Both the position numbers and the translations under genes were made by a program. This document shows, piece by piece, positions 294-28,979 of a DNA stretch of 39,050 bases. Within the stretch, counting starts at the first letter, position 1, and each line of letters opens with the position of its first letter. The DNA comes from Kayfunavirus PDP351P3, in the sequence record OZ035732.1; one strand, given 5' to 3'. The notes under the pieces are model-generated. The model had not been told where the DNA came from. It saw only the letters and a list, made by a program, of their open reading frames with translations, and ran no database searches.

Positions 294-296
294 GTG

Positions 297-337
297 TTAG
301 ACTCAAGGTCATCTACAGGTGGCCTTTATGATTAACA
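297..337 (+). promoter_or_regulatory. conserved structured RNA element copy 1 (putative RNase III processing site, R18.5-like)
   Basis: Motif AGACTCAAGGTCAT-[small hairpin CTAC/GTGG]-GGCCTTTATGATTA, one of three copies, each about 20 nt upstream of an RBS; lower stem AAGG/CCTT. Confidence 0.45.
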
Positions 338-350
338 CTAAGGAGGTTAC

Positions 351-752
351 ATGAAAGATTCATACATAAGTGGCGGTTACTGGAAGGTTACTCGTAATGG
401 TAAGGTTCATGGAGTTCATAGATTACTATGGGAGGAAGCCTACGGTCCTATCCCAGATGGTTACGTCATAGACCACATTGATAGGAATCCTATGAATAAC
501 GAACTGTCAAACCTTAGGTGCATACCTAAAGGCGCAAACAAGGCTAACACTGTATCCTCTAGGGAACTACCTAAAGGCGTATACTCTAGGTTTGCTAAAC
601 GTCAAGGTATTACTGTGTACTATGGTGACATTAGGATGGGAGGTAAGAAAGAAACGCACGCTCCTACTAAGAATCTGATGGAAGTCGTGGAATGGGCTAA
701 GTCAACTCATAGTAGAATGCTTAAGGAGACATATGGTATTTCAAATGTTTAA
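351..752 (+). CDS. free-standing HNH homing endonuclease
   Basis: 133-aa ORF with AAGGAGG RBS; motif H-R-LLWEE-YGPIP-GYVIDHID-N-NN-SNLR shared with the two other HNH ORFs in the window; AT-richer codon usage (AGG, ATA, CTA) than neighbours; inserted between genes 18 and 18.5. Confidence 0.85.
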   Translation: MKDSYISGGYWKVTRNGKVHGVHRLLWEEAYGPIPDGYVIDHIDRNPMNNELSNLRCIPKGANKANTVSSRELPKGVYSRFAKRQGITVYYGDIRMGGKKETHAPTKNLMEVVEWAKSTHSRMLKETYGISNV

Positions 753-3400: not shown

Positions 3401-3561
3401 CGCAATCATGGTAACGATTCATGAGCGGAAGACCTAAGGTCAGTACGTGGATAAAGACTCACTCTACTGACCTTAGCTACTGTAGTCAAGGACTTTAGGT
3501 AACACCTTAAGAGAAGCTCACTTAGGGTCATCCTACTTATTGGTCTATCCTAGTGTCGCCT

Positions 3562-3638: not shown

Positions 3639-3840
3639 TCTCACAGTTCAAGAACCTCAAGTCTCCCCATAGGCCCTCTTTCAGTCCAGACCAAAGGCCC
3701 TACCCCAGTCTATCATAAGGTTGGACCGATGGTCAAGACGTTAGGTCGACGATAGGTCTAGGCTATGGCTTAGGGAAGGACGATAGGTTGGGACTATGGG
3801 TCTTCTTTGAGTCTCTATCTGTATCAGACCTTGAGTCACT
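3639..3840 (+). repeat. probable direct terminal repeat (single collapsed copy) containing the physical genome ends
   Basis: Begins with TCTCACAGT, the sequence that starts the T7 genome as I recall it; internal similarity to the T7 terminal repeat (TCCCCCATAGG, TCTCTATCTGT); flanked on both sides by ACCTACAGT arrays; boundaries approximate. Confidence 0.45.
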
Positions 3841-3925
3841 ACCTACAGTCTAACTACCTACAGTCTAACTACCTACAGTCATCGACCATCGGTACTGCCG
3901 CTACCTACAGTCAGAGACCTACAGT
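3836..3925 (+). repeat. short tandem repeat array (CTAACTACCTACAGT x3 plus 2 extra CCTACAGT), SRL-like
   Basis: Three tandem 15-bp units followed by two more CCTACAGT copies, directly right of the putative terminal repeat. Confidence 0.6.
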
Positions 3926-4177: not shown

Positions 4178-4207
4178 TTGACAAGTAGTACAGACTTAAA
4201 GTAGTAT
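4178..4207 (+). promoter_or_regulatory. candidate host sigma70 early promoter (A3-like)
   Basis: TTGACA-N18-TAGTAT followed by GTACCACAT...CACTGAAA...CTCTTTAACAATCTGG, closely resembling the T7 A3 promoter and downstream leader as recalled. Confidence 0.5.
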
Positions 4208-4406
4208 GTACCACATCGAAACAACGGTGACGACCGACACTGAAACGGTCTACCTGAAGTCCTCTGACTGAAGGGAATGCTCTTTAACAATCTGGATAAA
4301 CTCTTAATGTGCGCCGATAGCGACTAACTACAGGGTCTTTGAGTCTACATCTGAAGGCCCTGACTGATAGTCACTAACACATACTTAACTTTGAGAGGAT
4401 ATAACT

Positions 4407-5198: not shown

Positions 5199-5274
5199 CT
5201 GCGAGTGATAGACGAGAGGTCATCGACTGATAGGTGGCCTCAAAGATTACCACTTGCATTAAGAGGAGTTAACT

Positions 5275-5889: not shown

Positions 5890-5912
5890 ACTTAACTATC
5901 ACTATAGGACTC
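5890..5912 (+). promoter_or_regulatory. phage RNAP promoter immediately upstream of the RNA polymerase gene
   Basis: ACTTAACTATCACTATA-GGACTC; predicted +1 G at 5907; followed by repeat-rich leader (AAGTGAAAGAC x2, GACTTTAAGT x2). Confidence 0.7.
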
Positions 5913-5981
5913 AAGGTCTAAGACTCCAAGTGAAAGACCAAAGAGACTTTAAGTGAAAGACTAATAACAAGGACTTTAAGT

Positions 5982-8663
5982 ATGAGCGTCATATCTATTG
6001 ACAAACATGACTTCTCTGATGTGTCGAACGCTATTGAGCCGTTTAACCTGCTGGCCGACCACTATGGGCAAGACCTTGCAGTCAAACAGCTTCAGCTTGA
6101 GCATGAGGCATACACTGAAGGCGAGCGACGTTTCATCAAGAACCTTGAGCGACAGACTGAGCGCGGGGAACTGGCAGACAATCAGGTCGCCAAGCCTTTG
6201 ATGCAGACTCTTGTACCTAAGATTGCGCAAGCCGTCAGGGAGTGGCATGAAGGTCCAGACGGGAAGCTGTCAACCTCTCGTCCGAGCGTAGCGTTCACCA
6301 TGTTGAGCACTGAAGAGAAGGTCGTTAAAGACCGCTCTCTACGCATCTCCTGTGAGTCTGCTGCGGTTATCATACTGAAGGTCATCCTCTCCAAGCTTGT
6401 CAAGCCTGAAGGGATACCGATTACACCGATGGCCTCCGCGATAGGCCGTACACTTGAGGATGAAATCCGCTTCGGTCGCATCCGAGACAAGGAGCAGGAG
6501 CACTTCAAGAAGGCGATAGCTGAGAACCTGAACAAGCGAGCCGGCGCATCCTACAAGAAGGCCTACATGCAAGCTGTTGAGACATCCATGCTAGAGCAGG
6601 GTCAACTGGAAGATGCGTGGGGGACTTGGAGTCCGACCGAGGCTGTCCACGTTGGCATCAAGATGCTTGAGATTGTCATCCAGTCAACACAACTGGTCGA
6701 GCTTAAGCGCTACGGTGCTGGCAATGCAGCGGCTGACGTTGAGATGGTCCACCTGTCAGACTTCTGGGTAAAGAAGATGGCACAACGAGGATTCAGCCTT
6801 GCGGGTATCGCTCCGGTCTACCAACCTTGCGTCGTTCCACCTAAGCCGTGGACTGGTGTCGTAGGAGGTGGGTACTGGGCCAAAGGACGCAGACCACTAC
6901 CACTGATTCGCTTAGGGTCTAAGTCTGCGGTGGCACGTTACGAAGACGTGTACATGCCTGAAGTCTATGACGCTGTGAATATCATCCAGAATACGCCTTG
7001 GAAAGTGAACAAGAAGGTTCTGGACGTGGTGAACATGGTCGAGAAGCTGAATAACACGCCTATTGACGACATCCCTCAGATGGAACCACTGAAGCCTGAA
7101 GACTATGCGGGTGAGACTGAAGAGGAACTCAAGGCGTGGAAGAAGGCTGCTGCTGGTATCTACCGCCGAGAGAAGGCCCGGCAGTCACGCAGATTGTCAC
7201 TGAGCTTTATCGTTAACCAAGCGAACAAGTTCTCTCAGTTCAAGGCCATCTGGTTCCCGTACAACATGGACTGGCGAGGTCGCGTCTACGCTGTGCCGAT
7301 GTTCAACCCTCAGGGTAACGACATGCAAAAGGGTCTCCTGACTCTGGCAGTCGGTAAGCCTATTGGTGCTGATGGTTTCAAATGGCTGAAGGTCCACGGT
7401 GCAAACTGCGCGGGTATTGATAAAGTAACCTTCGAGGAGCGCATAAAGTGGGTTGAAGACAACCACGATAACATCATGGCTACCGCTAAGGCACCGATGG
7501 ACAGCATTGAGTGGTGGGGCAAGTTAGACTCTCCGTTCTGCTTCCTTGCGTTCTGCTTCGAGTATGCTGGCGTAATGTACCACGGTTTGTCTTACTCCTG
7601 TTCGCTGCCGATAGCTTTCGATGGGTCCTGCTCTGGGATTCAGCACTTTAGTGCGATGCTTCGTGATCACATCGGTGGACATGCGGTAAACCTGACGCCT
7701 TCCGGTAAGGTCCAAGACATTTACCGCATCGTGTCTGACCGCATTGAGGAGGAGCTTAAAGTCCTGCTGGTTAACGGTACGGATAACGAGATGGTGACTC
7801 ACGAGGACAAGAAAACGGGTGAGATTACCGAGCGTCTCAAGCTGGGGACACGAGAGCTGGCCCGTCAATGGCTGACATACGGTATGTCACGCAAGGTCAC
7901 TAAGCGCTCAGTAATGACTCTGGCCTACGGGTCGAAAGAGTATGGCTTCGCAGACCAAGTGTACGAGGACATCGTGATGCCAGCGATTGACTCAGGGTCT
8001 GGCGCTATGTTCACTGAGCCAAGCCAAGCGTCTCGCTTCATGGCTAAGATGATTTGGGAAGCTGTGAGCGTGACCGTAGTTGCTGCGGTAGACGCTATGA
8101 AGTGGCTTCAAGGTGCCGCCAAGCTGCTGGCTGCTGAAGTGAAGGACAAGAAGACTGGAGAAATCCTTAAGCCTTGCCTTCCGGTACACTGGGTCACACC
8201 TGATGGTTTCCCGGTCTGGCAGGAATACCGCAAGAAGGATACCACTCGTCTTAACCTGATGTTCTTAGGGTCATTCAACCTTCAGCCTACAGTCAATAAA
8301 GGCATGAAGAAAGAGCTGGACAAGCACAAGCAGGAGTCAGGCATTAGCCCGAACTTCGTCCACTCACAAGATGGTAGCCACCTCCGAAAGACTGTAGTCC
8401 ACACACATCGTAAGTACGGAGTGATGTCATTCGCAGTGATTCATGATAGCTTCGGGACCATCCCGGCTGACGCTGAGTATCTATTCCGTGGTGTCCGCGA
8501 GACGATGGTCGAGACCTACCGCGACAACGATGTGCTGCTTGACTTCTACGAGCAGTTTGAATACCAGCTTCATGAGAGCCAGCGCGACAAGCTGCCAGAG
8601 CTTCCGAAGAAAGGTAAACTGAATATCGAAGACATCTTGTCTTCAGACTTTGCATTCGCTTAA
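5982..8663 (+). CDS. single-subunit DNA-directed RNA polymerase (T7 gene 1-like)
   Basis: 893-aa ORF; long colinear identity blocks with recalled T7 RNAP (FPYNMDWRGRVYAV, MFNPQGNDM, DGSCSGIQHFSAMLRD, RSVTKRSVMTLAYGS, HDSFGT, terminal FAFA). Confidence 0.98.
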   Translation: MSVISIDKHDFSDVSNAIEPFNLLADHYGQDLAVKQLQLEHEAYTEGERRFIKNLERQTERGELADNQVAKPLMQTLVPKIAQAVREWHEGPDGKLSTSRPSVAFTMLSTEEKVVKDRSLRISCESAAVIILKVILSKLVKPEGIPITPMASAIGRTLEDEIRFGRIRDKEQEHFKKAIAENLNKRAGASYKKAYMQAVETSMLEQGQLEDAWGTWSPTEAVHVGIKMLEIVIQSTQLVELKRYGAGNAAADVEMVHLSDFWVKKMAQRGFSLAGIAPVYQPCVVPPKPWTGVVGGGYWAKGRRPLPLIRLGSKSAVARYEDVYMPEVYDAVNIIQNTPWKVNKKVLDVVNMVEKLNNTPIDDIPQMEPLKPEDYAGETEEELKAWKKAAAGIYRREKARQSRRLSLSFIVNQANKFSQFKAIWFPYNMDWRGRVYAVPMFNPQGNDMQKGLLTLAVGKPIGADGFKWLKVHGANCAGIDKVTFEERIKWVEDNHDNIMATAKAPMDSIEWWGKLDSPFCFLAFCFEYAGVMYHGLSYSCSLPIAFDGSCSGIQHFSAMLRDHIGGHAVNLTPSGKVQDIYRIVSDRIEEELKVLLVNGTDNEMVTHEDKKTGEITERLKLGTRELARQWLTYGMSRKVTKRSVMTLAYGSKEYGFADQVYEDIVMPAIDSGSGAMFTEPSQASRFMAKMIWEAVSVTVVAAVDAMKWLQGAAKLLAAEVKDKKTGEILKPCLPVHWVTPDGFPVWQEYRKKDTTRLNLMFLGSFNLQPTVNKGMKKELDKHKQESGISPNFVHSQDGSHLRKTVVHTHRKYGVMSFAVIHDSFGTIPADAEYLFRGVRETMVETYRDNDVLLDFYEQFEYQLHESQRDKLPELPKKGKLNIEDILSSDFAFA

Positions 8664-8891: not shown

Positions 8892-8965
8892 CAGACCTAC
8901 AGTTGCTGGCCTTGTGGCTGGGAGCACTCGCAGTATTCACTTTAATCCAGCGCAGAAGAGGTTAA

Positions 8966-8988
8966 CCTAAACTATCACTATAGGATTA
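8966..8988 (+). promoter_or_regulatory. phage RNAP promoter (phi1.1-like; candidate primary replication origin region)
   Basis: CCTAAACTATCACTATA-GGATTA; position after gene 1 corresponds to T7 phi1.1A/B, which flank the primary origin. Confidence 0.75.
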
Positions 8989-9030
8989 GACTCAAGGTCA
9001 TGACTCAAAGTCGTGGCCTTCATGATTAAC
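8985..9030 (+). promoter_or_regulatory. conserved structured RNA element copy 2 (putative RNase III site R1.1-like)
   Basis: AGACTCAAGGTCAT-[GACT caa AGTC hairpin]-GTGGCCTTCATGATTA; upper hairpin differs from copies 1 and 3 by compensatory changes. Confidence 0.5.
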
Positions 9031-9060
9031 CCTAATAAACACTACTGGAGATTTAACCGT

Positions 9061-9240
9061 ATGTATCAGAACACTATCAACTTCGAGCGCATCCGTGAAC
9101 GTCAGCAGACTGAAGGTTACATTCCTAAGGGACGCAAGCTGAACAAGACTAAACGTGGTGGTGGCGTGAAGGGTGCTTTCCGTAATGCTGAGGGCAAAGA
9201 CTCTATGGTCAACCAAGAGAAGTATTTCGTAGGAGCATAA
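9061..9240 (+). CDS. gp1.1-like small basic protein
   Basis: ATG 9061 with GGAG RBS 9 nt upstream (track ORF 9013 starts at a GTG inside the RNA element); contains GRKLNKTKR as in recalled T7 gp1.1. Confidence 0.6.
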   Translation: MYQNTINFERIRERQQTEGYIPKGRKLNKTKRGGGVKGAFRNAEGKDSMVNQEKYFVGA

Positions 9241-9244
9241 AAGT

Positions 9245-9496
9245 ATGAGCAGACGTTGGTTATTCGATGCATCCACGAGCCAGTGGTCAGCGTTAGGCCG
9301 GACTCACCGCGAGATGAGTGAGGCAGGACTTGATGTCCTAATGGATGACTCGCCGTGCTCAGGAAAAACTCTGGTCAGAATAATTGAAGCAGACGGTGGG
9401 AGGCTTCTGGTCTCCAGAGAATTTACCGAAGATGAAATCTTTAACTGTGAGCAATGGTGCTTACAACAATTGAACGCTTATAGGAGCTGGAAATAA
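9245..9496 (+). CDS. gp1.2-like protein (candidate inhibitor of host dGTPase)
   Basis: 83-aa ORF at gene 1.2 position; pattern similarity to recalled T7 gp1.2 (R..IED..G.L...F..E..FN.C..WL, terminal WK). Confidence 0.55.
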   Translation: MSRRWLFDASTSQWSALGRTHREMSEAGLDVLMDDSPCSGKTLVRIIEADGGRLLVSREFTEDEIFNCEQWCLQQLNAYRSWK

Positions 9497-10584: not shown

Positions 10585-10620
10585 AACCCAGTGGTCTTCG
10601 CGGACTGCTGGGTTTCTTTG
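10585..10620 (+). terminator. putative intrinsic terminator for host RNAP (TE-like) after ligase
   Basis: Imperfect hairpin AACCCAGTGGTC...GACTGCTGGGTT followed by TCTTTGCTTTG; same location as T7 TE. Confidence 0.5.
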
Positions 10621-13667: not shown

Positions 13668-13883
13668 ATGATTAAACTTATCGAATTTCTTGGTCGTCTG
13701 GTGGTGCGTGGTTATCGTCGTGCTGCGGCTATGGAACGAAAGGTAGAAAAGAAGACTGCTGATGGTGCGGCTGATGCTGCTGCTCTAGCTGACAAGCTGA
13801 CCATCGCGTCACTGGAAGCTGGGATGAAGGCACGTCAAGCTGACACCAAAGCTGACCAGTTGTCTCAGTTCTTCAAAGCCTAA
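13668..13883 (+). CDS. hypothetical Ala-rich protein (71 aa)
   Basis: ATG 13668 with AAAGGAG RBS (track ORF 13578 extends upstream without RBS); no homolog recognised. Confidence 0.5.
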   Translation: MIKLIEFLGRLVVRGYRRAAAMERKVEKKTADGAADAAALADKLTIASLEAGMKARQADTKADQLSQFFKA

Positions 13884-13901
13884 ACTATCACCTTAGGGAT
13901 G
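13879..13901 (+). promoter_or_regulatory. weak or variant phage RNAP promoter upstream of gene 4
   Basis: CCTAAACTATCACCTTA-GGGATG; upstream half matches consensus, -4 and -3 deviate (CT instead of TA). Confidence 0.4.
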
Positions 13902-13948
13902 AGACCATGAGTCCTGTCCCTTTGTTCGCATTTGTGATTAAGGAGTGA

Positions 13949-15694: not shown

Positions 15695-15859
15695 GTGTTA
15701 AAGAAACTTAAAGCTCGATACCATCGGTTCATGTACAAATGGTGGAGCGATGAAGCAACCTGCCTGTCGAACATTCTGGGAGACCAAAGGTTCGACTCTA
15801 AGGCATGGAAGAAAGCTAACCGGAAGTTTATGTATCACTTCTTGCGTACAGACTTATAG
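15695..15859 (+). CDS. hypothetical small protein (54 aa, GTG start)
   Basis: GGAGGA RBS 7 nt upstream of GTG; below ORF-track cutoff; Trp/Lys-rich; T7 gene 4.5/4.7 position. Confidence 0.3.
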   Translation: MLKKLKARYHRFMYKWWSDEATCLSNILGDQRFDSKAWKKANRKFMYHFLRTDL

Positions 15860-15860
15860 G

Positions 15861-15902
15861 TCTAGACTCAAGGTCATTCACTTCGAGTGGCCTTTATGAT
15901 TA
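15861..15902 (+). promoter_or_regulatory. conserved structured RNA element copy 3 (putative RNase III site upstream of DNA polymerase)
   Basis: AGACTCAAGGTCAT-[CACT tcg AGTG hairpin]-GGCCTTTATGATTA, then RBS GCGGAGGA and ATG 15924. Confidence 0.5.
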
Positions 15903-15923
15903 GACTAAAGCGGAGGATTAACC

Positions 15924-17939
15924 ATGTTTGACCTTAAGGATATTTGGGGTTCGGACATCGAGACCAACGGTCTCCTTGATACAGTATCCCAGTTTCACTG
16001 TGGGGTCCTGATTAACGCCGAGTCGAATGAGACCCTTAAGTATGGGGTAGCTCCGATGGTCGGTATCATCGGGGGCTTCAAAGAGTATGTGCAGAAGGTG
16101 GAAGAGATTGCCACATCACCTGATGGTATGCTGGTATTCCACAACGGTATCAACTATGACGTCCCGGCTATTGACAAGCTGAAGCGTCTGTACTTTGGTA
16201 AACGCTTTAACTTCCCGAAACACAAGATGATTGATACCTTGGTTCTGGGCCGCTTGATGTACCCAAACATTAAGTTCTCAGACATGGGCGCGGTGAAATC
16301 TGGTCGTCTGCCGCCTAAGATGATGGGACGCCAGTCTCTTGAGGCTTGGGGCTATCGTCTAGGTGAGATGAAGGGTGAGTACAAACACGATTACGTTGCC
16401 AAGTGCAAGGCCGAAGGTATCGAATATAAGTCTGGGGACGAATGGTTGTTCCCATCTCAGGAGATGCTGGACTATAACGTTCAAGACGTTGTGGTCACGC
16501 TGGCGTTGTTCAAGAAGTTCCTGACTGACAAGTATTACTTCCAGTCTGAACAGTTCGCTTTCGAACAGATTTATGCGTTGCGTCTGGAACATGATGCTGC
16601 GTGGACCTGCGCGAAGATGGAGCGTAATGGCTATCCGATGAACACCGAGATGGTCGAAGGCTTATATCGTGAACTCACTGTCAAACGTGCGGAGTTACTG
16701 GACAAGCTGCGCTCTACTTTCGGTAGCTGGTACGCACCAAAGGGAGGCAAGGAGTTCTTCAGGCATCCACGGACAGGTAAGGACCTTCCGAAGTACCCGA
16801 GAGTCGTGTATCCTAAGGTAGGTGGCATCTTTAAGAAGCCGAAGAACAAAGCTCAACGCTTAGGTCTTGAACCTTGTGAACTCGATACGCGAGACACGAT
16901 GGAGGGAGCACCCTTCACGCCAATCACTTACGTTGAGTTTAATCCGGGAAGCGGAGACCACTTAGCGAAAGTCCTGATGGAGCGTGGTTGGGAGCCTGTG
17001 GACTTCACTGACACTGGGAAACCGGTAGTTGATGACGAGACGTTAGAACACGTTAAGTTGCCAGACGCAGAGGCTCAGGCTTGCGTAGAGCTGGTCCGTG
17101 AGTATCTGGTAGTCCAGAAGAGAATCGGGCAGGCTGCTGAAGGTAAGAACGCATGGTTGAAACTTGTAGGTCCAGACGGACGTATGCATGGTTCAATCAA
17201 TCCATGTGGTGCAGTAACAGGACGTGCGACCCATAGTTCACCAAACATGGCTCAGGTCCCTGCTAACGGTGCTCCGTATGGTGAGACTTGCCGTGGTGCT
17301 TTCGGTGCAGCGTGGAACAAGAAGGACGGTAAGCCAGACCCTTGGATTCAAGTAGGCGTGGATGCTTCAGGTCTTGAGCTTCGTTGTCTGGGGAACCGAG
17401 CGGCTCCGTTTGATGGTGGAGATTATGCGAAGACTGTGGTCGAAGGTGACATCCACTGGGCCAACGCAGTCAACGCTGGGTTAGCACCTAACGTCCCACG
17501 CGACAAGTCGAACCACGACCACGAGGCTTTCCGTAACAACGCTAAGACGTTCATCTATGCGTTCCTGTATGGTGCAGGGGCAGCTAAGATTGGACTGATA
17601 GTAGGCGGTGGGAAGAAGGAAGGTTCAGCTCTCATGAAGAAATTCATTGAGGGCACACCAGCCATCAAGGACCTCAGGGAAGCTGTGAGTAATACGTTAA
17701 TCTCAGACTCTAAGTGGGTAGATGGTGAGAACATCGTTAAGTGGAAACGCCGATGGTTGCGTGGACTTGATGGTCGCCGTATCCACATCCGGTCTCCACA
17801 CTCAGCACTTAACGCCTTACTTCAAGGCGATGGTGCGGTAATCTGTAAGCACTGGATTGTCGAGACTGAACGTATGCTCGAAGAGGCCGGGTATGTCCAC
17901 GGCTGGGAAGGAGACTTCGCATACATGGCATGGGTGCAT
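15924..17939 (+). CDS. DNA polymerase (T7 gene 5-like), exon 1
   Basis: 672 codons; SDIE.N.LL..V..FHCGV, HNG..YDVPA, NVQDVVVT, GSWY.PKGG.E.F.HPRTGK.LPKYPR, DASGLELRC, AKTFIY.FLYGAG, KWKRRW..GLDGR..H.RSPH.ALN.LLQ, FAYMAWVH match recalled T7 gp5; frame then runs into intron. Confidence 0.9.
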
Positions 17940-18540
17940 AAACTATCTCATTGTGCACATTAAATCTGGTGAACTCGGTGAAACCCTTCTAGGGCAATAC
18001 CGAGCCAAGCCATAGGGAGGATATATGAGAGGCAAGAAGTTAATCCTTGCGACCACAGAGAGTGGTTGTATCATCCCTACGTCACACAAACTTAATGCTG
18101 ATGGTTATTTCCGAAAGAGGACTAACGGTGTCCTAGAGATGTATCACAGGACAGTATGGAAGGAACAGCACGGAGATATACCAGAAGGGTATGAAGTAGA
18201 CCACAAGTGTAGGAACAGGGCATGCTGTAATGCAGAGCATCTCCAGTTACTAGAAGGGTCTGAGCATGCAGTCAAGACAAACAGTGAACGCTACGCTGAC
18301 CGTAAAGAGTCTGCGAGGGAATACTGGTTGGAGACTGGATGTACAGGAACACACTTAGGTGAGAAGTTTGGTGTTACGTTCTCTGCCGCGTGTAAGTGGA
18401 TTAGAGAGTGGAAGGCGTAGAGACTATCCGAAAGGAGTAGGGCCGAGGGTGAGATTCCCTCGTTACCCGAAGCGCCAGACAGTCAACTCAAAGGCTGATG
18501 ATATAGTCCGACACTCCTAGTAATAGGAGAATACAGAAAG
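17940..18540 (+). mobile_element. group I intron interrupting DNA polymerase motif C, carrying an HNH homing endonuclease gene
   Basis: 5' exon ends in U (17939), intron ends in G (18540); exon GUGCAU can pair with intron GUGCAC (17953-17958) as P1; P7 strands AGAGACUA (18419-18426) and GAUAUAGUCC (18500-18509); flanking exons rejoin in frame to give ...AWVH-DEIQV... Confidence 0.8.
18025..18420 (+). CDS. intron-encoded HNH homing endonuclease
   Basis: 131-aa ORF with GGGAGG RBS inside the intron; HNH family motif (YHRTVWKEQHGDIPEGYEVDHKCRNRACCNAEHLQL) shared with ORFs 351-752 and 21443-21835; AGG/AGA-rich codon usage. Confidence 0.85.
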   Translation: MRGKKLILATTESGCIIPTSHKLNADGYFRKRTNGVLEMYHRTVWKEQHGDIPEGYEVDHKCRNRACCNAEHLQLLEGSEHAVKTNSERYADRKESAREYWLETGCTGTHLGEKFGVTFSAACKWIREWKA

Positions 18541-20200: not shown

Positions 20201-20223
20201 ACTAAACTATCACTATAGGGACT
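20201..20223 (+). promoter_or_regulatory. phage RNAP promoter (phi6.5-like)
   Basis: ACTAAACTATCACTATA-GGGACT. Confidence 0.75.
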
Positions 20224-21205: not shown

Positions 21206-21446
21206 ATCAATCAGTAAGGCTTTCAAGAAAGTGGTGAAAAGTACGTTAGGGACAGTGGGTCTTGGCTCTGACGATGCTCCTAAGGTTGTTGAGGCTCAGA
21301 CCCCAGCAGCACCAGTGGAAGTACCGAACGACCAAGTGGAGGATGTGGATACTGAAACAACCGCATCTGATGAGAAGAAAGTGAAGCGTTCTGGTAAGCG
21401 TAGCCTTCAGGTCTCTCGCACCTCTGGTGGAGGCATCTCTATATGA
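21198..21446 (+). CDS. gp7.3-like tail/adsorption protein
   Basis: 82 aa, GTG start with AAGGAG RBS; MGK...KK..K, central VEVP, KRSGKRSLQVSRTSGGGISI vs recalled T7 gp7.3 ...GGKKSLSVARSSGGGINI. Confidence 0.75.
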   Translation: MGKSISKAFKKVVKSTLGTVGLGSDDAPKVVEAQTPAAPVEVPNDQVEDVDTETTASDEKKVKRSGKRSLQVSRTSGGGISI

Positions 21447-21835
21447 CACCATGTCATGAATGGGGTGGATATTGCACCAAGGATGGCTACGGTGAAACTA
21501 GGGTAGATGGGCGCAAGGTTCGCGTTCATCGCCTAGAGTGGACGAAACACTACGGACCCATTCCGCATGACAAAGTGGTTCGCCACAAGTGTGACAACCC
21601 TAAGTGTTTTAATATTGAACACCTAGAGTTAGGAACAACACAAGATAACACGGCTGACAGAGTGTCTCGTGGTCGAAGCGCCAAAGGAGAGGATAACGGT
21701 AACGCCATCCTCACTATTGATATTGTCAATGAGATTCGCGAGAGTGGCATGTCTCAGCGCAAAATAGCGAAGACCTATGGAGTGTCACAGTCTACCGTAT
21801 CTAAAATCAAACGCAATGTAACGTGGAGGGCATAA
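21443..21835 (+). CDS. HNH endonuclease with C-terminal helix-turn-helix (gene 7.7 position)
   Basis: 130 aa; VHRLEWTKHYGPIPHDKVVRHKCDNPKCFNIEHLEL (HNH); C-terminal QRKIAKTYGVSQSTVSKIKRN (HTH-like); T7 gene 7.7 is also an HNH-type gene. Confidence 0.85.
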   Translation: MTPCHEWGGYCTKDGYGETRVDGRKVRVHRLEWTKHYGPIPHDKVVRHKCDNPKCFNIEHLELGTTQDNTADRVSRGRSAKGEDNGNAILTIDIVNEIRESGMSQRKIAKTYGVSQSTVSKIKRNVTWRA

Positions 21836-28903: not shown

Positions 28904-28927
28904 CTTATTGAAGGGCCTATATATTTA

Positions 28928-28950
28928 CCTTAACTATCACTATAGGGACT
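28928..28950 (+). promoter_or_regulatory. phage RNAP promoter (phi13-like)
   Basis: CCTTAACTATCACTATA-GGGACT. Confidence 0.75.
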
Positions 28951-28979
28951 ATAGGCCCTTAAGGTTATAAGGAGACTTT

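What the first reader, a model, noticed from the sequence alone, without database searches (positions are those of the whole stretch)
297..337. Three copies of a conserved structured RNA element with compensatory base changes (putative RNase III sites)
At 297-337, 8985-9030 and 15861-15902 the same frame AGACTCAAGGTCAT...GGCCTT(T/C)ATGATTA recurs. The central mini-hairpin differs in each copy but stays paired: CTAC/GTGG, GACT/AGTC, CACT/AGTG. Covariation of this kind argues for selection on RNA structure. Each copy lies 20-35 nt upstream of an RBS and start codon (HNH/18.5, gene 1.1, DNA polymerase). Copy 2 is where T7 has its R1.1 RNase III site. Copy 1 precedes the HNH gene inserted before 18.5, so the HNH insertion used or kept the processing site.
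Basis: seen in the sequence. Interest (0 to 1): 0.6.

Follow-up and report, generated by a model that had tools for sequence, protein, structure and literature searches.

The report
T7-type RNase III processing hairpins
The repeated element is the well-known RNase III mRNA-processing hairpin of T7-like phages, present here five times in a K1F-like coliphage genome, so it is real and functional-looking but ordinary.

Summary
The frame AGACTCAAGGTCAT…GGCCTT(T/C)ATGATTA occurs exactly three times, at 299-334, 8988-9028 and 15864-15902, far beyond chance. The window is a circularly permuted Kayfunavirus (K1F-like, T7 relatives) genome.

The three copies align column for column with the mapped RNase III sites of phage T7 (R0.3, R0.5, R1, R1.1, R4.7, R18.5). 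A covariance model built only from seven T7 sites finds them at 45-57 bits. Nothing else on either strand exceeds 13.4 bits.

All five sit between genes, in positions that match T7 R18.5, R0.3, R0.5, R1.1 and R4.7. Across 96 distinct relatives the two-helix fold is 95% paired, and 15 of 17 pairs show double changes.

The real covariation lies in the apex and the lower stem.

The HNH gene is a rare insertion placed flush against the 3' edge of the R18.5 hairpin, which predates it.

Cleavage by RNase III is inferred, not shown. The predicted cuts are UAU|GA at 329/330, 9023/9024 and 15897/15898.

Verdict: a known kind of element, with low novelty.

The parts
294..338 (+). RNase III-type hairpin, R18.5 position, directly after the gene 18 stop codon (291-293). 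Lower stem 294-300/332-338; 5' loop ACUC 301-304; upper stem 305-313/318-326; tetraloop UACA 314-317; 3' loop UAUGA 327-331. Predicted cut U329|G330.
   Evidence: 66.3 bits; 57.1 bits with the T7-only model
8983..9032 (+). RNase III-type hairpin, R1.1 position. Lower stem 8983-8989/9026-9032 with one A·C mismatch; ACUC 8990-8993; upper stem 8994-9005/9009-9020; loop CAA; 3' loop CAUGA 9021-9025. Predicted cut U9023|G9024.
   Evidence: 60.2 bits; 44.9 bits
15859..15906 (+). RNase III-type hairpin before DNA polymerase, the positional analogue of T7 R4.7. Lower stem 15859-15865/15900-15906; ACUC 15866-15869; upper stem 15870-15879/15885-15894; loop ACUUC; 3' loop UAUGA 15895-15899. Predicted cut U15897|G15898.
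   Evidence: 61.5 bits; 48.5 bits
5200..5258 (+). It is more diverged: 5' loop ACGA, 3' loop AAAGA, and a lower stem extended to 12 pairs. Predicted cut A5244|G5245.
   Evidence: -25.8 kcal/mol, z -4.2; 51.7 bits; 32.0 bits, T7-only model
4320..4374 (+). Fifth, weakest copy, at the R0.3 position. It lies downstream of the sigma-70-like promoter at 4178-4207 and 27 nt upstream of the ocr-like gene 0.3 (4407). Upper stem CAGGGUCUUU/GAAGGCCCUG; 3' loop ACUGA. Predicted cut U4365|G4366.
   Evidence: 25.4 bits; not in the training set; 28.6 bits; z -3.7
8970..8984 (+). Phage RNA polymerase promoter (AACTATCACTATAGG). The inferred +1 is G8983, the first base of the copy 2 lower stem, so transcripts from this promoter would begin with the complete hairpin.
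   Evidence: 11 such promoters, all on the + strand, 0.8 expected. The +1 is placed by analogy with the T7 promoter (inference).
351..752 (+). HNH homing-endonuclease gene inserted between the R18.5 hairpin and gene 18.5. Its RBS (AAGGAGG, 340-346) starts 1-2 nt after the lower stem, and its 3' end overlaps the rebuilt start of 18.5 (733).
   Evidence: (7 of 1006 records cover at least 80% of the query)

Best explanation
These are T7-group RNase III processing signals. They are hairpins of about 45-60 nt in the polycistronic phage mRNAs.

Each has a variable lower stem and a conserved asymmetric internal loop (5' ACUC, 3' YAUGA). The upper stem, AAGGUCAU…GUGGCCUU, is conserved and carries two fixed U·G wobbles. 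The apex is variable.

The inferred mechanism is that host RNase III binds the quasi-continuous helix and cuts one strand only, in the 3' side of the internal loop at UAU|GA.

The upstream mRNA is then left with the upper stem-loop at its 3' end, which protects it against 3'-to-5' exonucleases. The downstream mRNA starts 21-37 nt before its start codon, just ahead of its RBS.

Shown here:
- the sequence and fold
- the covariation
- the strand specificity
- synteny with the T7 sites

Inferred from T7 biochemistry:
- that RNase III cleaves the element
- where it cuts
- the consequences for mRNA stability and translation
For: 1. Column-for-column alignment with seven T7 sites.
2. A model built from T7 sites alone finds all five window sites at 28.6-57.1 bits. 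The next best hit on either strand scores 13.4 bits or less.
3. Six T7 cleavage coordinates, recalled independently, fall in one alignment column, and the window copies have the same UAU|GA there.
4. In 125 hits (96 distinct) from T7-like viral contigs, 95.2% of cells are paired and 15 of 17 pairs show double changes. The covariation score is 0.533, against 0.20 for shuffles and 0.12 or less for slid partners.
5. An independent MAFFT plus RNAalifold run recovers the same two helices.
6. The internal-loop bases are as conserved as the stems. This fits a recognition and cleavage epitope rather than mere structure.
7. Fixed U·G pairs make the fold strand-specific. The reverse strand scores only 12-13 bits.
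8. All five sites are intercistronic and syntenic with T7 R18.5, R0.3, R0.5, R1.1 and R4.7. K1F has them at the same five positions.
9. Literature: internal loops restrict RNase III to a single cut, which yields protective 3' hairpins. About 11 bp between the cut and the loop is enough, and the loop sequence is irrelevant (PMC1540722, PMC3867540). T7 R0.5 and R1.1 work as portable RNase III sites (PMC3643576).
Against: No experimental data exist for this phage. The T7 cleavage coordinates come from memory of Dunn & Studier 1983, because the GenBank records as shown by the tool list no RNase III features.

The large covariation alignment (A3) was seeded by an exact pattern and fitted to the model, which inflates conservation of the core. 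The MAFFT control only partly offsets this.

Site 5 (4320-4380) and site 4 depart from the consensus loop sequence and may be cut less efficiently or differently. Kayfunaviruses appear to lack the T7 gp0.7 kinase that stimulates RNase III, so usage could differ quantitatively.
Confidence: 0.9

Rival explanations
1. The hairpins are structured mRNA elements that act without RNase III. They might serve as stand-alone 3' stabilisers, as translational operators, or as binding sites for a phage protein that controls the downstream gene.
For: The conserved internal-loop sequence could in principle be a protein-binding motif. Each site lies close to an RBS. RNase III can also bind substrates without cleaving them (PMC1540722).
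Against: The sequence is near-identical to T7 sites that are cleaved by RNase III. The same element precedes functionally unrelated genes (HNH/Rz, 1.1, DNA polymerase, 0.3), which argues against a gene-specific operator.
Confidence: 0.05
2. The repeats act at the DNA level, as recombination or homing junctions that delimit exchangeable gene modules, or as part of the replication origin near the 1.1 promoter. On this reading the RNA fold is incidental.
For: One HNH lineage sits flush against the R18.5 hairpin in three genera. Many HSPs to distant relatives start at the promoter/hairpin edge of copy 2. From general knowledge, the primary origin of T7 lies in the phi1.1 region.
Against: Conserved U·G pairs would be A·C mismatches on the other strand, and the reverse strand scores about 12 bits. 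Compensatory changes preserve RNA pairing. HNH genes are not generally next to these sites: only 2 of 27 lie within 60 nt downstream of one.
Confidence: 0.03
3. They are transcription terminators or pause sites for the host or phage RNA polymerase.
For: They are stable G+C-containing hairpins in intergenic regions.
Against: No U-tract follows any of the five hairpins, and the terminator scan hits none of them. The scan does find the TE-like terminator after ligase at 10585-10614. Copy 2 also starts at +1 of a promoter.
Confidence: 0.01

Closest known systems
[quoted passage not shown]
   Same: Same two-helix hairpin with a 4-nt/5-nt internal loop. Same core sequence ACUCAAGGUC…GUGGCCUUUAUGAU. 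Same UAU|GA at the mapped scissile bond. Same intercistronic positions (R18.5, R0.3, R0.5, R1.1, R4.7) and same strand.
   Different: The window has five canonical copies, against seven canonical plus three promoter-embedded sites in T7. There is no canonical R1 or R1.3. The R4.7-type site directly precedes gene 5 because gene 4.7 is absent. The R18.5-type site is followed by an inserted HNH gene. The apex and lower-stem sequences differ.
Orthologous sites in Kayfunavirus relatives (K1F, Vec13, TM1) and other Studiervirinae (Przondovirus, Helsettvirus)
   Same: K1F has model hits at the same five positions. The R18.5 hairpin is shared, with an identical core and lower stem.
   Different: The window's R18.5 apex is a short C-G plus UACA version. 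K1F, Vec13 and TM1 have UAC/GUA plus a 5-nt loop, and two contigs have a longer apex. In some relatives a phage promoter is fused to the pre-gene-5 site, whereas here only a degenerate remnant is present. These sites are not annotated in the records shown.
T7 promoter-embedded RNase III sites R3.8, R6.5 and R13
   Same: The window has an R3.8-like segment at 13893-13925 that aligns to T7. It also has a promoter-in-loop hairpin before gene 13, at 28911-28965.
   Different: These are not copies of the frame in the finding, score below threshold with the models, and fold weakly (z -1.2 and -2.0). They are only candidates.

Membership tests
T7-group RNase III processing signals | Sequence and structure match to a profile built only from experimentally mapped T7 sites | tested here: met
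   Model R2 (seven T7 sites) scores 57.1, 48.5, 44.9, 32.0 and 28.6 bits for the five window sites. The best other hit scores 13.4 bits.
T7-group RNase III processing signals | Irregular hairpin: a lower stem of about 7 bp, an asymmetric internal loop (4 nt on the 5' side, 5 nt on the 3' side), and an upper stem of at least 9 bp | tested here: met
   Folds, and the consensus structure. Upper stems have 9, 12, 10, 9 and 10 pairs.
T7-group RNase III processing signals | Conserved internal-loop sequence with the scissile bond in the 3' side (UAU|GA) | tested here: met
   Six T7 cleavage coordinates map to one alignment column. The window copies read UAU|GA, CAU|GA, UAU|GA, AAA|GA and ACU|GA. Loop conservation across 96 sequences is shown. 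The T7 coordinates are from memory.
T7-group RNase III processing signals | Base pairing maintained by compensatory changes, specific to the sense strand | tested here: met
   95.2% of cells paired and 15 of 17 pairs with double changes. Independent alignment. Fixed U·G pairs, and the reverse strand scores 13.4 bits or less.
T7-group RNase III processing signals | Intercistronic position on the transcribed strand, syntenic with named T7 sites | tested here: met
   Gene calls, the T7 map, and promoters.
T7-group RNase III processing signals | Cleavage by host RNase III in vivo and in vitro | not testable with these tools
   Needs end mapping in wild-type versus rnc hosts, or an in vitro cleavage assay.
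Intrinsic (rho-independent) terminator | G+C-rich hairpin followed by a U-tract | tested here: not met
   No terminator-like hit at any of the five sites. The tails read AAGGAGG, UAAUAAAC and AAAGCGG.
Any curated Rfam family | Score at or above the gathering threshold, or E-value of 10 or less in the permissive mode | tested here: not met
   No match in the whole window or in 8940-9070 at E up to 10. Rfam release 15 returned no match for these sites.

The most novel reading that the evidence does not exclude
The invariant core of about 28 nt, shared by several sites within one genome and across genera, could do double duty at the DNA level. It could be a portable junction at which cassettes (HNH genes, promoters, small ORFs) are exchanged among T7-like phages. 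One HNH lineage has specialised in the spot immediately 3' of the R18.5 hairpin, where it gains a ready-made processed 5' end.
Probability: 0.08. Interest if true: 0.4.

Novelty: already known. Interest (0 to 1): 0.12.

Why it matters
The practical value is annotation. GenBank records of K1F-like phages, as shown by the tool, do not list these sites, and Rfam returned no match for them. The five hairpins define the mRNA processing map of this phage and the likely 5' ends of the mRNAs for HNH/18.5, 0.3, 1.1 and the DNA polymerase.

The covariance models built here recover the sites cleanly and could seed an Rfam family. Biologically the finding adds nothing unexpected. T7-type RNase III sites are textbook elements and are already used as synthetic-biology parts.

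Tried and rejected
1. Rfam at gathering and permissive thresholds gave no family.

2. Terminator hypothesis: no U-tracts and no scan hits at the sites.

3. DNA-level or either-strand element: the reverse strand scores only 12-13 bits.

4. General link between HNH genes and RNase III sites: only 2 of 27 HNH places in 76 loci lie within 60 nt downstream of a canonical site. That is about the background rate of roughly 10% of genes. Only the specific R18.5-adjacent HNH lineage shows the pattern.

5. Canonical R1 before the RNA polymerase gene: only the 5' half (GGACTCAAGGTC) follows the promoter at 5894. The fold is not better than shuffles (z -0.25) and there is no model hit.

6. R6.5-type site near the promoter at 20205: no fold (z -0.1).

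7. Literature: I could not retrieve the K1F genome paper or Panayotatos & Truong 1985. Searches for K1F plus RNase III returned only reviews. So I cannot say whether these sites were described for K1F in print.

8. RNase III features in the T7 GenBank records: none are shown by the tool.

Full report
**What the window is.** The first 20 kb match 986 phage records. The best matches are E. coli Kayfunavirus (K1F-like, Autographiviridae, Studiervirinae) genomes at 92-95% identity over about 90% of the query. The window is a circularly permuted whole genome of 39 kb.

The gene order around the finding (PHROGs) is:

| Coordinates | Gene |
|---|---|
| 30-293 | small terminase (gene 18) |
| 351-752 | HNH endonuclease |
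| 733-1179 | Rz-like spanin (18.5) |
| 1182-2945 | large terminase (19) |
| 5982-8663 | RNA polymerase |
| 9061-9240 | gene 1.1 (41% identity to T7 gp1.1 over 37 aa) |
| 9245-9496 | gene 1.2 (dGTPase inhibitor) |
| 15924-17963 | DNA polymerase |

Eleven phage promoters (AACTATCACTATAGG) lie on the + strand, against 0.8 expected.

**Checking the observation.** The two halves of the frame occur exactly three times each. AGACTCAAGGTCAT is at 299, 8988 and 15864. GGCCTTYATGATTA is at 321, 9015 and 15889. No shuffle came near the observed counts.

Each copy folds as a lower stem, an asymmetric internal loop and an upper stem. Energies are -18.4 to -20.2 kcal/mol and z-scores are -2.6 to -4.8.

Two details need correction. 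First, the pairings CTAC/GTGG (copy 1) and CACT/AGTG (copy 3) are out of register. GUGG belongs to the conserved upper stem GGUCAU/GUGGCC (G-C, G-C, U·G, C-G, A-U, U·G).

The variable apex is therefore C-G plus UACA in copy 1, GACU/AGUC plus CAA in copy 2, and UC/GA plus ACUUC in copy 3. The first apical pair is C-G, G-C and U-A in the three copies, which is genuine covariation.

Second, the lower stems also covary: GUGUUAG/UUAACAC, GGAUUAG/UUAACCC and GGUCUAG/UUAGACU.

**What it is.** I extracted the T7 sequence around the RNase III cleavage coordinates given by Dunn & Studier 1983. These are 890, 1468, 3138, 5887, 6450, 13892 and 36856, recalled from memory. The window copies are near-identical to them.

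For example, T7 R0.5 reads GAUAGACUCAAGGUCGCUCCUAGCGAGUGGCCUUUAUGAUUAUC. Window copy 1 reads GUUAGACUCAAGGUCAUCUACAGGUGGCCUUUAUGAUUAAC.

Six of the seven recalled coordinates fall in one and the same alignment column, giving …UAU|GA… in the 3' side of the internal loop. That agreement supports both the recalled numbers and the homology.

A covariance model built from the seven T7 sites alone finds five sites in the window:

| Site | Bits |
|---|---|
| 294-344 | 57.1 |
| 15859-15912 | 48.5 |
| 8983-9038 | 44.9 |
| 5205-5259 | 32.0 |
| 4320-4380 | 28.6 |

Everything else on both strands scores 13.4 bits or less. A mixed model gives the same five sites. As a positive control it also recovers T7 R6.5, which was not in the training set, at 27.9 bits.

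The two extra sites are intercistronic as well. Site 5205-5259 lies between early ORFs, like T7 R0.5. Site 4320-4380 lies between a sigma-70-like promoter (4178-4207) and the ocr-like gene 0.3 (4407), like T7 R0.3.

K1F itself has hits at the same five positions. Rfam has no family for these elements.

**Covariation in relatives.** An exact-pattern scan of viral contigs returned 120 loci, mostly contigs of 38-41 kb. The model found 125 sites in the first 100 of them, 96 of which are distinct.

On that alignment 95.2% of cells are paired and 15 of 17 pairs show double changes. The covariation score is 0.533, against 0.20 in shuffles (0 of 500 reached it) and 0.12 or less when partners are slid by 1-3 columns.

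That alignment was fitted to the model, so I realigned the 96 sequences with MAFFT and ran RNAalifold. The same two helices came back. Examples are lower-stem pair 2 as UA 42, GC 26 and AU 20, and the top upper-stem pair as CG 44 and UA 35.

The internal-loop bases (ACUC; Y-A-U-G-A) are as conserved as the stem core, whereas the lower stem and apex vary freely.

The fixed U·G pairs would be A·C on the other strand, and the reverse strand scores only about 12 bits. The constraint therefore acts on the sense RNA.

**How it most likely works.** Established biochemistry of T7 R1.1 says three things:

- Internal loops limit E. coli RNase III to one phosphodiester, producing 3' hairpins that protect against 3'-to-5' exonucleases.
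- About 11 bp between the cut and the loop suffice.
- The loop sequence and position do not set the cut (PMC1540722; PMC3867540).

T7 R0.5 and R1.1 work as portable sites (PMC3643576).

By homology I predict single cuts at U329|G330, U9023|G9024, U15897|G15898, A5244|G5245 and U4365|G4366. These would leave upstream mRNAs ending in the upper stem-loop. The downstream mRNAs would begin 21-42 nt before their start codons.

The inferred +1 of the promoter at 8970-8984 is G8983, the first base of the copy 2 lower stem. Transcripts from that promoter would therefore start with the hairpin and lose a 41-nt leader. That +1 is inferred from the T7 promoter.

None of these cleavage steps is shown here.

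**The HNH gene.** Only 7 of 1006 matching records cover the HNH-containing segment. Vec13, K1F and T7 lack the gene but have the hairpin after gene 18.

The insertion begins directly 3' of the lower stem (…UAACACUA|AGGAGG) and ends within the first codons of 18.5, which were rebuilt.

HNH proteins 72-77% identical sit in the same register after the R18.5 hairpin in Przondovirus (IME321, 066056) and Helsettvirus (fPS-54-ocr).

I tested whether HNH genes in general prefer such sites. Only 2 of 27 do, which is about background.

**Alternatives.**
- Terminators are excluded: there is no U-tract and no scan hit.
- A purely DNA-level role is disfavoured by the strand specificity and the RNA-type covariation.
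- A structure that binds some other factor cannot be formally excluded. It is unnecessary given the identity to proven RNase III substrates.

**Verdict.** The finding is a correct rediscovery of a textbook element in an unannotated genome, incomplete by two copies and with two mis-registered pairings. It is not novel. Its value is for annotation and possibly as the seed of an RNA family.

Noticed in passing
window 17930-18530 (HNH ORF 18025-18420): The DNA polymerase gene appears to be interrupted by a group I intron carrying an HNH homing endonuclease. Rfam Intron_gpI scores 38 bits, below its gathering score of 50, with E 5e-8. The K1F record annotates gene 5 as a two-piece join with an HNH inside.
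   Followed up: partly
window 13883-13925: A variant phage promoter (AACTATCACCTTAGG) is followed by a segment that aligns to T7 phi3.8/R3.8 (…GAGACCA…UCCCUUUGUUCGCAUU). Here it directly precedes the primase/helicase gene, with no 3.8 HNH gene. The hairpin is weak (z -1.2), so this is only a candidate non-canonical RNase III site.
   Followed up: partly
window 28911-28965: The promoter at 28932-28946 sits in the loop of an 11-bp stem (AAGGGCCUAUA/UAUAGGCCCUU) just upstream of gene 13. This resembles the promoter-embedded R13 arrangement of T7, in which only read-through transcripts would form the stem.
   Followed up: partly
window 5894-5981: A phage promoter lies directly upstream of the RNA polymerase gene. 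It is followed by GGACTCAAGGTC, the 5' half of the RNase III frame, but there is no 3' half and no significant fold. No canonical R1 site exists in this genome.
   Followed up: partly
window 3434-3476 and 3838-3880: The non-coding region near the presumed genome end contains a strong 12-bp hairpin (-20.5 kcal/mol, z -3.5). It also has a perfect 15-nt tandem repeat, ACTACCTACAGTCTA x2.9. Function unknown; possibly features of the concatemer junction or terminal repeat region.
   Followed up: no
window 21443-21835: A third HNH endonuclease gene, 46% identical to T7 gp7.7, lies upstream of the portal gene. The genome therefore carries at least three HNH genes.
   Followed up: no
loci L105, L088, L032, L009 compared with window 15845-15865: In some relatives a full phage promoter is fused to the pre-gene-5 RNase III hairpin, as at R1.1. 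In the window and in K1F only a degenerate remnant (ACAGACTTATAGG) is present.
   Followed up: no
window 10585-10614: A strong intrinsic terminator (13-bp stem plus U-tract) lies right after the ligase gene. This is the position of the early terminator TE in T7.
   Followed up: no
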